Part shown: piece by piece, positions 27,614-39,769 of the stretch
Layout: each line of letters starts with the position of its first letter
Position numbering within the stretch: the first letter of the stretch is position 1
From: Leucoraja ocellata
Lineage: Eukaryota
DNA length: 64,000 bases
Assembly (NCBI GenBank): GCA_036785375.1
Contig: JAWMAR010000030.1
Span: 5,084,001 to 5,148,000, forward strand
Reading direction: 5' to 3'
Notes under the pieces: generated by a model
Database searches by the model: none
Told to the model about the DNA's origin: nothing
Seen by the model: the letters and a program-made list of their open reading frames with translations, nothing else
Made by a program: the position numbers and the translations under genes

Positions 27614-28054
27614 GTAGACTGATATTTTATTTTCCGTTGATTCCATGGTGGCTTTTAGTTTAAATAGGGCGGTGTGTTTAATTTACTTCATCCTGTTTTT
27701 GTGTGTTTTCTTTGCTTGTATGCATTATGATCTTGTTTTGACTGCTTTGTGCCTGGCAACGCTTATTTAATGTTTCTCAAAGAGTTCAGAATTTTAAATA
27801 AAAACATTTAAAAGGTTGCAATGACACTAAATCATTATTTGACAGGAAATTGAGGCTTGAGTGTTCTTTTGGAATTTTCCCAATATATGGAAAATGCCCC
27901 TTTTATAAATGGGAAACTATCATTTGCACTGTCTTAATAATTAATTTGGGCATCCAGTAGTTTACTTACTTTCTGCACTTTTGAGAAAGTCTGTCTGAGT
28001 ACTGGTGTAAATGCTACACAGAAGATCAATCTCCTTTATTGTTCTCGAAATATT

Positions 28055-28185
28055 AAAACAACTGCAGATGCTGAAAATCGGAAACAAAAACCGAACTCTG
28101 TAGAAACATTCAGCAGGCCAGGCAGCATCTATGGAGGGAGAAACCTAATCAAAGTTTTGGGTCAGTGATCCCACATAGAATGGGA
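28055..28185 (-). mobile_element. Older Penelope-like terminal fragment
   Basis: AACTGCAGATGCTGAAAATC..CAGCAGGCCAGGCAGCATCTATGGAG module. Confidence 0.6.
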
Positions 28186-29019
28186 AAGTGAGATGACAGT
28201 TTTAAGCTGCTGGCAATTCTGTATTTAAGGTTTGAGTTGTTTTAAGATTGGGAATATGTTAAGTGATTGTGAGTGAAGTATGGAAGGAATTTGGGGAAGC
28301 GCACAACTGTTCATCCACTTTGGCTTAGTCTGTTCCTGCTAAACTGACTGATTTGATTTGCATTAGCAGAGCATTGTGAGACATCTTGGGAGTCTTTGAA
28401 GTCGACCTTTTGCGTTTTTAATTCCATTGCTGCCTGCCTCTGAAAGTTCAGCTGCATTTATTTTCAAATTATATATTTCATGTTGGAACTATGCGCTTCT
28501 GGACACTTTTGTTATATTTAAAGACATTGACTAAGCAAGCAAGAAATAAATGCAGTTCACAAAAATCTTTAAACTATTTTGAAAAACACTTTTTCTTTTG
28601 TCCTCGTCTATCTGCCTCACTGTGTTTGTTTTACACAATATCTCAAATGCACACATGTACCTTTTGTTTTCCGAGAGATAGATCCATGATTTAGGACATT
28701 AATTCAATACCTCCAACAAAGGCCACTCGTCAGAGTCAAGAACTATAGACCTGATTGTCAAGTTCGGGCTGATGTTGACTGGACATCTTAAATCTTCTTG
28801 CACTGTGGTGTTAATTATCAGAGCATATTAACCTGCTGCCAGTAGATTTGCCTATCTCTCATACAATTGACCTCGCTGGTTTCCATCCCAATGTTGTCAG
28901 GTTTGTTTAATCTTAAAAAAACAGTTTTTAATACAAAGATCATGGAGGTATACTTTAACCAATGTGACACGAGCATCATTATTATGTTCTGAGTCCTTCA
29001 CAAAATTGTGGCACAAAAT

Positions 29020-29192
29020 AGACACAGGAACTGCAGATGTGGGAACCGCGAGTGGAACTCAGTGGGTCGGGCAACATTTGTGAAGGGGAATGGACAGGCG
29101 GCTGGAAGGGTCCAAACCTGAAACATCGCCTGTCCATTTCCCATCATAGATGTTGCCTGACCAGCTGAGCTCCTCCAGCACTTTGTTTTGCT
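29020..29192. mobile_element. Two Penelope-like termini in inverted (fold-back) arrangement
   Basis: Minus-type half (GGAACTCAGTGGGTCGGGCAACAT..GGAATGGACAGGCG) followed by a plus-type half (GAAACATCGCCTGTCCATTT..ATGTTGCCTGACCAGCTGAGCTCC). Confidence 0.65.
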
Positions 29193-29873
29193 GTTGTACA
29201 GAATACTTGTCTTTGAATAAATCATCTTTCCTATTGATAAATATAAAATAAAATGGGACTTTTTAAATGGAAGTGTGAGCATGCTGAAAACGTTTAAGAA
29301 GTTTGGCGCATGTGTAAGATGGCTAGTAATCAGGAGTAATGAGCGGACTTCTCCCTGTGAAGGTTCAATCCATGGTTTTTGTGCACAACATGACTGTCAA
29401 GCAGTGCAAGAAATGGATATGCAGAAATGCAAATACTTTTTTTGCAAAATACCATTACCAAAACATACATTGAATTGTATTTTTATACGTTTCTTTTTGA
29501 TGTTTGGCTTGTTGGAATGGAGGTAATTAGTAAATCCAAATAAATCTGTAGACTGAAGTGATCTAAGGTGTCCTCATTTTAAAGTATTTGATTATGTTGC
29601 ATGGTTCGCATCAAGCACTGCATGAGGTGATGGTCATGTTTTGAAGTTCCTCTTACAAATGGTTTAGATGGACATCCTAAGGCATGAATTTGTGTCTTAA
29701 AATTCATACATGGCTATATTTATAACGAGAATCTGTAGTTTTGTATGCTTTCAAATGTGAAATAATTAAAACGTAGTTGAAAGTTTAATTGAGATTTTTT
29801 TTAAATCCCTTATCACAATCATTTTACAACTTTTTAATTTACTATTTACTGGCAACATTCTTTCCCCCCTGAG

Positions 29874-29909
29874 GCTTACACTATCATGTGGAAAAACAAA
29901 CGAGTGCAG
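29874..29909 (+). CDS. GBF1: Candidate alternative GBF1 microexon (36 nt, AYTIMWKNKRVQ)
   Basis: ttctttcccccctgag| gct tac act atc atg tgg aaa aac aaa cga gtg cag |gtaagg. Phase 0-0 in a phase-0 intron, no stop, and about 78 nt without an AG upstream. Confidence 0.6.
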
Positions 29910-31600
29910 GTAAGGATATTAGACTGATGCAAGCTTTGTCAGTGGAAGGAAGGTCCCAAAATCAGAATACTGTTCACACAAGTATAGGATTTAGGATCCT
30001 GGATATCTGTAATTTCATCAAATAACATTTACAATCTTGTAATGAAATAATTTTTAAAAGTTTTATTTAGAATTTTGAAAAAGTAAATCAAATATATAGG
30101 TGAAAATGGCCTGTTGTTTTCTCCCATACATTCAAAAATCCATTATTGGGGAGAGGTAGAATACATATTTTCCATCAAATTGACGAGCTCTTGTGCCATT
30201 TCCCTATTAAGAAAAGTATTGGATTGGAGTCACCTAATATGCACATAGTTGGTCCTTAAGCAGCAGATGCTGGTCACTTGAAACGATTGTTGGTTGCACT
30301 GTAAACTGATTGTATGATACCTCCCTTTCTGTACACTAGTAGATTTAGACAACTTGAAATCTGATGTTTCTTGCTATAATTTCTGACAAGCAACAGTATG
30401 TAGATGGAGTTTGGTTTGTTCTCAGCTACTATACCATACTGTGCCAACAAATCAGACCTTCAGTATATTATGAACTATTCAAAATATAAATTTGGTTCTT
30501 CCATTGTGCATTTGTTGAACATATCATAAGCATTATGATCCTTTGCTGTCGTACTTTAACTGGTCTTCCATTGTCTATATCAAATTTGATTTTATGCATT
30601 CGCAGAGAGGTTCAGTTTACGTGTTTGTGTACATCAATATTACTGAAATCCTCATTTCTATCTTGAATGCCTTTTATTTCCATAATATTACCGAACAGCT
30701 CATTTAAAGAACATGGGGTATTCCTGATAATTTCACCTTTGCTGTATTTGTTGGCATCCGCACATAGCACCATTATTGATGGATCTTTCAGAAATATTTT
30801 CCTATCATTCCTCCGTCTGCATTGTGATTTACTACTGCAACGACGTGCAGCAAAGAAAAATATTTGTAACTTGGGTGGTTAATTTTTGGTAATTTTCATC
30901 CTTGGACCAGGATCTGACCTGTGTAGCTTGGTAAAGATTTTGCGAGGGAAGTGGTGGGGGTGATCAGTTAAATGACTGTTTACTTTTAGTTTTGCTTTGG
31001 ATCAAAATGAATTGGTGCAATAGCCTATGTTGTATTATTTCTGTCTGTAGTGCCCTGCTTTTCTCCCCCCATGTATGCTTAGCATTTATCCAGAACTAAT
31101 TAACCTAGCCAAGATTCCATTGTTGGGTTTGGAATGCTCTTAATGATGATGTGAATAAGCCCGACTGGATAAATAATATTTCACCTTCAGATTGCAAACA
31201 AGAATGTCCGGGTATACATTTAATGTGTTAAAAATATTAACGAGTGAAAATCTGTTGCAGGAATTTCCTTCATAATTAGCAGCAGACAGAGAACTTAGTA
31301 TTCAGAACCACATCAATGCATTTAAAAATGAACAATACATTTTGATCACTTCCGTGTCAGTGTTGTACCTCATTGTTATTAATTGTTGTTTAGGCATGGG
31401 GTAAATTTCATTCCTTAATATTAGTTTAGTATGAATAAATAAGTGGCCATTTTGTTTTTCATTTTATGGGGTGAGCATCACTCACTTGAAGTGATAAACT
31501 GAACAGGGAAGTTTGCAAACAGAAATATAATTCTCTGGATTTAAATCTGAGTATTTTAAAGCAGACCTTGCATTAGAATATGTTCGCATTCAACTTGCAG

Positions 31601-31778
31601 CTTAAAATGAGGGCTGGAGGAATGAGTGACTCATCCAAGTGGAAAAAGCAGAAGAAATCACCACGACCTTCTCGTCACGCCAACAAACTTGCACTTGCGT
31701 CCGATCAGCAGTCAGTTCCTGGCCAGGTCTTGCATGGTTCAATCGGTTCTGTACCTCAGCTCTTGAACAATCATCCAG
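31601..31778 (+). CDS. GBF1: GBF1 window exon 6 (178 nt)
   Basis: caacttgcag| LKMRAGGMSDSSKWKKQKKSPRPSRH...NNHP |gtaggt; phase 0-1. Confidence 0.92.
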
Positions 31779-34864: not shown

Positions 34865-34963
34865 CTGTTAATTGTTGAACGTCTTAATTTATACGCCACT
34901 TCTCTCCGGCTATGTTTCCTTTTATTTGAGGGCATGAGGCAACATCTTAAGTTCCAACTTGAG
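34865..34963 (+). CDS. GBF1: GBF1 window exon 10 (99 nt)
   Basis: tttgcttttcag| LLIVERLNLYATSLRLCFLLFEGMRQHLKFQLE |gtaagt; follows an 87-nt intron. Confidence 0.96.
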
Positions 34964-38293: not shown

Positions 38294-39185
38294 TAGGCGG
38301 CGCGGCTCTGGCCAGCAGCGGCCTCTGCAGCCTGTCCGCGTTTTTATTATTTTTGTCTATGTTTTTATGTAGTGTTTGTTATTTTATGTTGGGGTGCGTG
38401 TGTGGGGGGGTGGGGGTGGGGTGGGAGGGGGGGGGAAACTTTTTGAATCTCTCCCTGCACTGAGACCAGACCTTTTCTCGTCGGGTCTCAGTCGTCGTTG
38501 AGGCCGCAACGAGGAGCGGCCTCCAACAGGAAGAGACCGGGGACTCGGGTGTCGACTCACCTCACCGTAGCGGAGCTGGCCGGGTCCGGAGTGGTGGAGG
38601 AGTGCTGCTGCTGCTGGTGCTGTTGCTGCTGCTGCTGATGCTGTTGCTGCTGCTGCTGCTGCTGCCGGAGAGTCGGAGGCTCTCTACAGGTCTGTGGACG
38701 ACGGCGCCGAGCCCACGGCTCCCTGGGGGGAGACCGCTTTTCGGGGCTTCTGCGGCGGCGACTTCTCCCGCCCGAGTTGCGGGGTCGAAGAGCTCCTGGA
38801 GCGGGGCCTAGCACCGCTGCCCCGCGCGGCTGGAATGGCCGCGGACTCTGCGAGCGCACGCCGGGGGCTCTAACACCAAGACCCGGTGTGCGACCTCGCA
38901 CCACCCGGCGTGGCTTTAATGGCCGCGGGACAATCGCCATCGCCAGCCGGGGGCTATGACTTTGACTCTGACATCGGGGGGGGGGGGGGGGGGGGAGAGT
39001 GCAGTGGAGAGATACGTTTATTTGGCCTTCCATCACAGTTATGTGATGGATGTTTATGTTAAATGTAAATATGTTGTGTCTGGGGTCTATTTGTGTGTAA
39101 TGTATGGCTGCAGAAACGGCATTTCGTTTGGACCTCCAGGGGTCCAAATGACAAATAAATTGATTCTGATTCTGATTCTGATTCT
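38294..39185 (+). mobile_element. GC-rich non-autonomous retroposon (~890 bp) nested in the Tc1 transposase
   Basis: Interrupts the Tc1 ..GAT G|AG.. and is flanked by GATG (38290-38293, 39186-39189). Its 3' end has the stem-loop TTTGGACC..GGTCCAAA, then AATAAA and an (ATTCTG)4 tail. Confidence 0.8.
38603..38665. repeat. Imperfect (CTG)n trinucleotide repeat inside the retroposon
   Basis: gctgctgctgctggtgctgttgctgctgctgctgatgctgttgctgctgctg...; source of the poly-Q and poly-L ORFs in the track. Confidence 0.9.
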
Positions 39186-39769
39186 GATGAGGTGAAGATT
39201 AACTTATATCAGAGTGATGGCAAGAGCAAAATATGGAGGAGAGAAGGAGCTGCCCAAGATCCAAAGCATGCCACATCATCTGTGAAACACGGTGGTGGGG
39301 GTGTTATGACCTGGCCATGTATGGCTGCTGAAGGTATTGGCTCACATCTTCATTGATGATACAACTGCTGATGGCAGTAGCATAATGAATTCTGAAGTGT
39401 ACAGACACATCCTACCTGCTCAGGTTCCAACAAATGCCTCAAAACTCATTGGCCGGTGGTTCATTCTACAGCAAGACAATGATCCCAAACATACTGCTAA
39501 AGCAACAAAGGAGTTTTTCAAAGCCTAAAAATGGTAAATTCTTAAGTGGCCAAGTCAATCACCCGAACTGAACTCAATTGAATGCCTTTTCTGGCATGCC
39601 TTTTATATGCTGAAGAGAAAACTGAAGGGGACTAGCTCCCAAAACAAGCATAAGCTAAAGATGGCTGTAATACAGGCCTGGCAGAGCAGGGCACTGTATT
39701 TCTGAGGGAATGGAGCCAGGGGTTGGGACACTTTTGTTGGTTTAGAGCTGCCACAGCCATAATGGTATC

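What the first reader, a model, noticed from the sequence alone, without database searches (positions are those of the whole stretch)
29874..29909. Hidden 36-nt in-frame GBF1 microexon (AYTIMWKNKRVQ) with a rare GAG acceptor
Seen: in the phase-0 intron between ...TSMKK and LKMRAGG..., a 36-nt stop-free segment is bounded by a pyrimidine tract ending cctGAG and a near-consensus donor CAG|GTAAGG. No AG occurs from 29794 to 29871, and two TGCATG motifs lie upstream (29598, 29619). Known: long AG-exclusion zones mark real acceptors, GAG is the rarest NAG acceptor, and TGCATG is the RBFOX site. The canonical human GBF1 as I recall it lacks this peptide. Inference: a regulated, perhaps muscle or neural, microexon that adds a hydrophobic/basic patch just after the DCB domain and could alter dimerisation or membrane recruitment.
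Basis: partly seen in the sequence, partly recalled or inferred. Interest (0 to 1): 0.7.

Follow-up and report, generated by a model that had tools for sequence, protein, structure and literature searches.

The report
Ancient GBF1 mini-exon lost in mammals
A 36-base optional exon of the Golgi trafficking gene GBF1 is real, already annotated, and shared by sharks, skates, bony fish, frogs and birds but not found in the mammal proteins examined; its likely zebrafish counterpart is used mainly in retina and nerve tissue, so it likely tunes GBF1 for light-sensing and nerve cells.

Summary
Real and largely known. The 36-nt exon (29874-29909, AYTIMWKNKRVQ) is in RefSeq GBF1 isoforms: the identical peptide in the skate Amblyraja and catsharks, close variants in a chimaera, ray-finned fish, frogs, birds and one turtle, with matching isoforms that skip it. 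It is in 0 of 130 mammalian proteins. A fish genomic contig has the same weak GAG acceptor and donor (43 of 46 nt identical). The likely zebrafish orthologue, DreEX0034448, is tabulated in two papers' supplements: retina-enriched (PSI 78 against 5 elsewhere, 38 neural), Srrm3-dependent (47 to 1.5 in mutant eyes), no human orthologue. That favours retina/neural over muscle. In a related species 13 reads show skipping; no inclusion junction was seen. The peptide lands in the disordered DCB-HUS linker, just before a conserved LKMR motif. A meeting abstract reports that DCB-HUS binds rhodopsin and active Arf4. Not found in print: the shared GAG acceptor, and the ancestral origin with likely mammalian loss. 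No earlier scan note covers it.

The parts
29874..29909 (+). 36-nt phase-0 cassette exon of GBF1 (12 residues)
   Evidence: Translation; identical peptide in P0001 and P0007, and P0125 vs P0122 differ only by it; 33 of 36 nt identical to fish contig L003
29869..29873 (+). GAG acceptor (CTGAG), also present in the fish contig and in the second genomic copy
   Evidence: the only GAG among 22 mapped acceptors
29910..29915 (+). Donor GTAAGG (GTAAG shared with the fish contig)
29794..29871 (+). AG-free zone with pyrimidine tract; no UGC within 30 nt of the acceptor (nearest at -128), whereas the fish contig has UGC at -24 and -20
29598..29624 (+). Two upstream TGCATG (RBFOX-type) motifs; one more GCATG at 29682; likely repressive by position
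   Evidence: the fish contig has one TGCATG at -209, but the flanking introns do not align better than shuffles; positional rule from PMC9303857
27559..27613 (+). Upstream flanking exon (end of DCB, start of linker)
   Evidence: skip junction in raw reads
31601..31778 (+). Downstream flanking exon (LKMR motif, basic stretch, serine equivalent to human S233)

Best explanation
This is a real, frame-preserving 36-nt cassette exon of GBF1, conserved from cartilaginous fish to birds, that is likely skipped by default because of its weak GAG acceptor and likely switched on in retina and neurons by Srrm3/4, and it likely tunes the regulatory DCB-HUS region of GBF1 for photoreceptor and neuronal Golgi export. 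Shown: the exon, its splice sites, both isoforms in annotation, the skip junction in RNA of a relative, and the shared GAG in one fish. From papers, for the likely zebrafish orthologue: retina/neural enrichment and Srrm3 dependence. Inferred: the same regulation in this skate; repression by upstream RBFOX sites outside photoreceptors; loss in mammals; and a role for the aromatic-basic peptide (+3 charge) as a short interaction or membrane-contact motif inserted between the KK and LKMR residues of the linker, changing how the rhodopsin/Arf4-GTP-binding region engages cargo or trans-Golgi membrane. Odds: real exon about 0.97; retina/neural in the skate about 0.75; this protein-level role about 0.35.
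For: Annotated isoform pairs differ by exactly this peptide in skate, sawfish-type, chimaera, paddlefish and teleost sets. It is in 23 of 77 cartilaginous-fish proteins, 7 of 15 frog and 31 of 34 rows grouped as birds (one row later proved not to be a bird), and in 26 of 62 cypriniform/catfish proteins. 7 of 12 positions are invariant over 10 variants. A Logan contig of 6,403 nt encodes a 1,889-aa protein with the exon (P0239), so it is a spliced transcript. Fish contig L003 is identical at 43 of 46 nt across acceptor, exon and donor, with only 1 third-position change in 12 codons. Zebrafish gbf1 DreEX0034448 (36 nt): neural dPSI +47.9, eMIC-mutant dPSI -45.95, no human orthologue (PMC12626424 supplement rows); PSI retina 77.7, others 4.8, neural 37.6; srrm3-mutant eyes 47.5 to 1.5 (PMC9303857 supplement rows). 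It is the only 12-residue indel in the 12 cypriniform isoform pairs compared. GAG is the least preferred acceptor (PMC2699507 passage). AlphaFold2 puts the peptide about 19 residues after the last confident DCB helix, in a low-confidence linker with a tentative helix. L, K, M, R right after the insert are the commonest residues in 31, 24, 25 and 26 of 58 distant GBF1 homologues. Rhodopsin and active Arf4 bind the DCB-HUS fragment (PMC4519070, meeting abstract, whole text).
Against: No inclusion junction was seen in any of 8 runs laid; two raw-read runs gave 4 and 9 skip reads and zero depth over the exon. Tissues are unknown, about 5% of each of those runs was read, and they come from a related species. 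The skate acceptor lacks the UGC motif that Srrm3/4 use (nearest at -128). GBF1 is not named in the chicken, mouse or human retina-exon lists, so retina enrichment may be fish-specific. Orthology to DreEX0034448 rests on gene, length and isoform logic; I did not see the zebrafish sequence. GAG conservation rests on one fish contig. Flanking introns show no significant similarity (394 and 351 of 500 shuffles score as high). The helical hydrophobic moment is moderate (0.44 at most), and the model shows no docking. Mammalian rods work without the exon.
Confidence: 0.7

Rival explanations
1. The exon is real and neural, but in cartilaginous fish it is driven by something other than Srrm3/4 (for example Musashi through downstream UAG, or relief from RBFOX/PTB repression).
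For: No UGC within 30 nt of the skate acceptor. Six TAG lie in the 250 nt downstream. Many neural microexons lack UGC: 51 non-UGC against 180 UGC in human (PMC12871342 passage).
Against: Six TAG in 250 nt is reached by 7.8% of window bins, and the fish contig has only two. The zebrafish event falls to 1.5 PSI in srrm3 mutants.
Confidence: 0.15
2. The exon is real but muscle- or heart-regulated in this skate.
For: Upstream TGCATG motifs; RBFOX proteins are expressed in muscle (recalled).
Against: In zebrafish the average over 15 other tissue groups is 4.8 PSI, and the highest of them equals the neural value. Upstream RBFOX sites are expected to repress.
Confidence: 0.04
3. Splicing is regulated, but the peptide is a near-neutral linker extension conserved mainly because of overlapping splicing signals.
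For: It lies in a disordered linker. It is not annotated in mammals, squamates or most turtles. Synonymous sites are also conserved. Two zebrafish studies of other microexons report mild effects of deletion (PMC12626420 title; PMC12626424 section heading).
Against: Substitutions among variants are mostly conservative (I/V, L/M/F), with W, Y and K fixed. The insert sits inside a motif conserved to invertebrates.
Confidence: 0.1
4. A pseudo-exon or gene-prediction artefact.
For: No inclusion reads were seen here; RefSeq XP isoforms are models.
Against: Conservation across jawed vertebrates at protein and DNA level, a transcript contig that includes it, and measured inclusion in zebrafish.
Confidence: 0.01

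Closest known systems
Zebrafish gbf1 exon DreEX0034448 (VastDB event; supplements of PMC12626424 and PMC9303857)
   Same: Same gene, 36 nt, simple cassette; likely the orthologue.
   Different: Listed only as table rows and classed as having no human orthologue. The paper reads that class as suggesting zebrafish lineage-specific exons, whereas shark, frog and bird copies make this one ancestral. The skate acceptor lacks the nearby UGC seen in the fish contig.
RefSeq GBF1 isoforms of Amblyraja (XP_032868447-451 with the exon, XP_032868452 without)
   Same: Identical peptide at the identical position.
   Different: None for the exon; the window is a close relative with a few substitutions elsewhere.
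Srrm3/4-dependent neural microexons and retina-enriched exons (RetMICs/RetLONGs)
   Same: Short, in frame, highly conserved, long AG-free acceptor region, upstream RBFOX motifs, in a vesicle-traffic/GTPase-regulator gene.
   Different: 36 nt exceeds the 3-27-nt definition; GAG acceptor; no proximal UGC in the skate; not found in mammals.
Cytohesin-1 three-nucleotide microexon (ARF-GEF; PMC6724607 passage)
   Same: A tiny alternative exon that tunes an ARF-GEF.
   Different: It changes lipid specificity in a folded PH domain; this one lies in a disordered linker of a large ARF-GEF and has no tested function.

Membership tests
Neural microexon (3-27 nt definition) | Length 3-27 nt | tested here: not met
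   36 nt; the zebrafish event is classed MINI_Neural, 28-51 nt
Srrm3/4-dependent neural/retinal mini-exon (28-51 nt) | Length 28-51 nt and frame-preserving | tested here: met
Srrm3/4-dependent neural/retinal mini-exon (28-51 nt) | Alternative (both inclusion and skipping occur) | tested here: met
   Skip junction in 13 raw reads of a relative; inclusion in annotated isoforms and a fish transcript contig. Inclusion was not seen in skate reads.
Srrm3/4-dependent neural/retinal mini-exon (28-51 nt) | Deep vertebrate conservation of exon and splice sites | tested here: met
   splice sites compared in one fish contig only
Srrm3/4-dependent neural/retinal mini-exon (28-51 nt) | UGC motif near the acceptor | tested here: not met
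   Skate: nearest UGC at -128. Met in fish contig L003 (-24, -20). The motif is enriched in the class but not universal.
Srrm3/4-dependent neural/retinal mini-exon (28-51 nt) | Neural/retinal enrichment of inclusion | not testable with these tools
   Runs carry no tissue labels; published for the likely zebrafish orthologue
Srrm3/4-dependent neural/retinal mini-exon (28-51 nt) | Loss of inclusion without Srrm3/4 | not testable with these tools
   Published for zebrafish only; membership of the skate exon is by orthology, not shown directly
GBF1/Gea large ARF-GEF (host gene) | HUS and Sec7 domains, best hits named GBF1, closest solved structure Gea2 | tested here: met

The most novel reading that the evidence does not exclude
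Probability: 0.25. Interest if true: 0.6.

Novelty: already known. Interest (0 to 1): 0.3.

Why it matters
The exon is catalogued, so its existence is not news. Three modest points were not found in the papers searched: the GAG acceptor is shared by a skate and a bony fish; the exon is ancestral, so its absence in human is likely a loss and not a fish gain; and it sits in the GBF1 region reported to bind rhodopsin and active Arf4. If the peptide changes that binding, it gives a testable case of splicing that tunes the photoreceptor secretory pathway, and it matters for work that uses frog or fish retina with mammalian GBF1 constructs.

Tried and rejected
No run on record as RNA was listed as a holder of the stretch; raw-read runs came in by species label. 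Contig runs X1, X5, X7, X11 and X13 and single-cell run X21 showed no splice joint at this exon; contigs are filtered, so these blanks say nothing. An apparent shared intronic element around the TGCATG motifs did not beat shuffles. Downstream UAG enrichment was not significant. No counterpart of the 25-27-residue cassette exon of bony vertebrates was found in the skate intron (best score 21.7 against 20.1-24.0 in five control introns). A second GAG candidate at 34931 is the 3' part of a constitutive exon. My alignment used the wrong strand of the second copy and was redone. gbf1 is absent from 12 of 13 supplement files of PMC12626420; files 13-18 of PMC9303857 were not searched. The 2017 J Cell Sci paper on GBF1 and rhodopsin is not held. 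Calmodulin-binding and YxxΦ sorting-motif readings were considered from recalled patterns and not tested; one variant has Ser at the Φ position. No complex prediction and no fold of the skipped form were run. Searches of earlier findings gave nothing on this exon.

Full report
Observation. The window holds 23 mapped coding exons of a skate-type GBF1 gene; the closest named protein is from Amblyraja. Both junctions of the small exon match P0001 at 18 of 18 residues, and it has the only GAG among 22 acceptors. Alone the signals are weak: AG-free gaps this long are 1.3% of gaps, and paired TGCATG occurs in 2.8% of 213 bins.

It is an annotated, conserved exon. The peptide is already in RefSeq: Amblyraja isoforms X1-X3 have it, and X4 differs from X1 only by lacking it. 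Isoform pairs differing by this peptide also exist in chimaera, paddlefish and teleosts. Counts among the proteins I retrieved (enriched by my queries, so not frequencies): cartilaginous fish 23 of 77, frogs 7 of 15, birds 31 of 34 rows (one row, P0392, later proved to lead a non-bird cluster); cypriniform/catfish clusters 26 of 62, gar-type cluster 5 of 13, passerine cluster 6 of 15, turtles 4 of 74, all four from one softshell turtle and diverged at two positions. It was in 0 of 130 mammalian proteins (including 6 platypus and 11 marsupial; unnamed rows left out), 0 of 33 squamate, and 0 of 15 in a cluster I take to be crocodilian (label recalled). It was also absent from small sets of coelacanth (4), bichir (7), newt (4) and caecilian (4) proteins and from one Xenopus cluster (0 of 8), although another Xenopus protein has it (P0331). 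For a tissue-restricted exon, absence from annotation is weak evidence outside mammals. A, Y, W, K, K, V and Q are invariant over 10 variants. A Logan contig of 6,403 nt encodes a full-length fish GBF1 with the exon (P0239), which is transcript evidence of inclusion.

The GAG acceptor is shared with a bony fish. A pattern scan of metagenome contigs gave one hit, L003, encoding the ray-finned-fish variant. Acceptor, exon and donor are identical to the skate at 43 of 46 nt, including CTGAG and GTAAG. The fish has UGC at -24 and -20 and a TGCATG at -209; the skate has no UGC nearer than -128. The flanking introns do not align better than shuffles. GAG is the least preferred acceptor, CAG > TAG > AAG > GAG (PMC2699507, passages). 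A weak site kept in both lineages is likely part of the regulation, but this rests on one contig.

RNA. Two raw-read runs from a related species show the skip junction 27613^31601 in 4 and 9 reads and no depth over the exon. Six further runs showed no joint there. Tissues are not given. So skipping is shown in a relative; inclusion is not shown in any skate read.

Regulation, from papers. The supplements of PMC12626424 (rows; passages) list zebrafish gbf1 DreEX0034448, 36 nt, as a neural mini-exon: zero inclusion until 24 hpf, 52% at 5 dpf, neural dPSI +47.9, eMIC-mutant dPSI -45.95, no human orthologue. The supplements of PMC9303857 (rows; passages; 12 of 18 files searched) list it as retina-enriched: PSI 77.7 in retina, 4.8 in others, 37.6 neural, and 47.5 to 1.5 in srrm3-mutant eyes. 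GBF1 is not named in that paper's human, mouse or chicken lists. I did not see the zebrafish sequence; orthology is inferred because this is the only 12-residue indel in 12 cypriniform isoform pairs. The same paper reports RBFOX motifs upstream of retina microexons, where they are expected to repress, which fits the skate layout. PMC12871342 (passages) reports extended branchpoint-to-acceptor regions in neural microexons and a sizeable non-UGC subset.

Protein context. An AlphaFold2 model of residues 41-668 of P0001 (75-sequence alignment, mean pLDDT 78) has confident DCB and HUS helices. The peptide lies about 19 residues after the last DCB helix, in a low-confidence region with a tentative helix and no docking. 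It splits a KK-LKMR motif whose L, K, M and R are the commonest residues in 31, 24, 25 and 26 of 58 distant homologues, and it adds three basic and several aromatic/hydrophobic residues to an already basic stretch. Human S233, 19 residues past the insertion point, is a conserved phosphosite in this linker whose mutants disturb cytokinesis but not secretion (PMC10442430, passages). Yeast Gea2 dimerises through DCB-HUS and binds membrane through a different helix, between HDS1 and HDS2 (PMC9469209, passages), so the insert is not at the known membrane anchor. In photoreceptors GBF1 activates Arf4 for rhodopsin export (PMC7889997 and PMC11828469, passages), and rhodopsin and active Arf4 were pulled down by DCB-HUS (PMC4519070, meeting abstract, whole text). 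That makes a cargo- or membrane-tuning role in photoreceptors the most economical guess. It is untested, and mammalian rods do without the exon.

Novelty. The exon is known to annotation and to two supplementary tables. Full-text searches found no paper that discusses it: GBF1 with microexon gave 2 papers, neither about it; the event id gave 0; three broader searches listed nothing on it (listings only). The library lacks most subscription journals. Verdict: real, already known, modest interest (0.3).

Noticed in passing
G000:C30 about 8.18-8.21 Mb, minus strand (L002, L004): A second GBF1 copy about 3 Mb away on the same contig, 98-99% identical over 8 kb, with the small exon and its splice sites intact; a distant exon is duplicated too. 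Recent duplication or an uncollapsed haplotype.
   Followed up: partly
Same intron in bony vertebrates (P0017, P0059, P0330, P0693); no match in window 27614-31600: A second cassette exon of 25-27 residues, upstream of the 36-nt exon, from gar and coelacanth to mammals. In tetrapods it has an optional 8-residue extension that appears only after it and mostly begins with Val, likely an alternative donor; the extension loosely resembles the core of the 12-residue peptide.
   Followed up: partly
GBF1 residue about 1563 of P0125 (beyond the window): A 4-residue (12-nt) alternative segment shared by skates, paddlefish and teleosts.
   Followed up: no
P0134: A ray isoform model starts at the Met inside the small exon; probably a model with an alternative 5' end.
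   Followed up: no
window 28004-28154 and 29061-29211: Short repeat pieces in the intron that attract hundreds of RNA reads from elsewhere in the transcriptome; likely SINE-type.
   Followed up: no
window 38464-39198: A GC-rich intronic stretch with a long CAG/CTG-type triplet run giving poly-Q, poly-A, poly-L and poly-C open frames.
   Followed up: no
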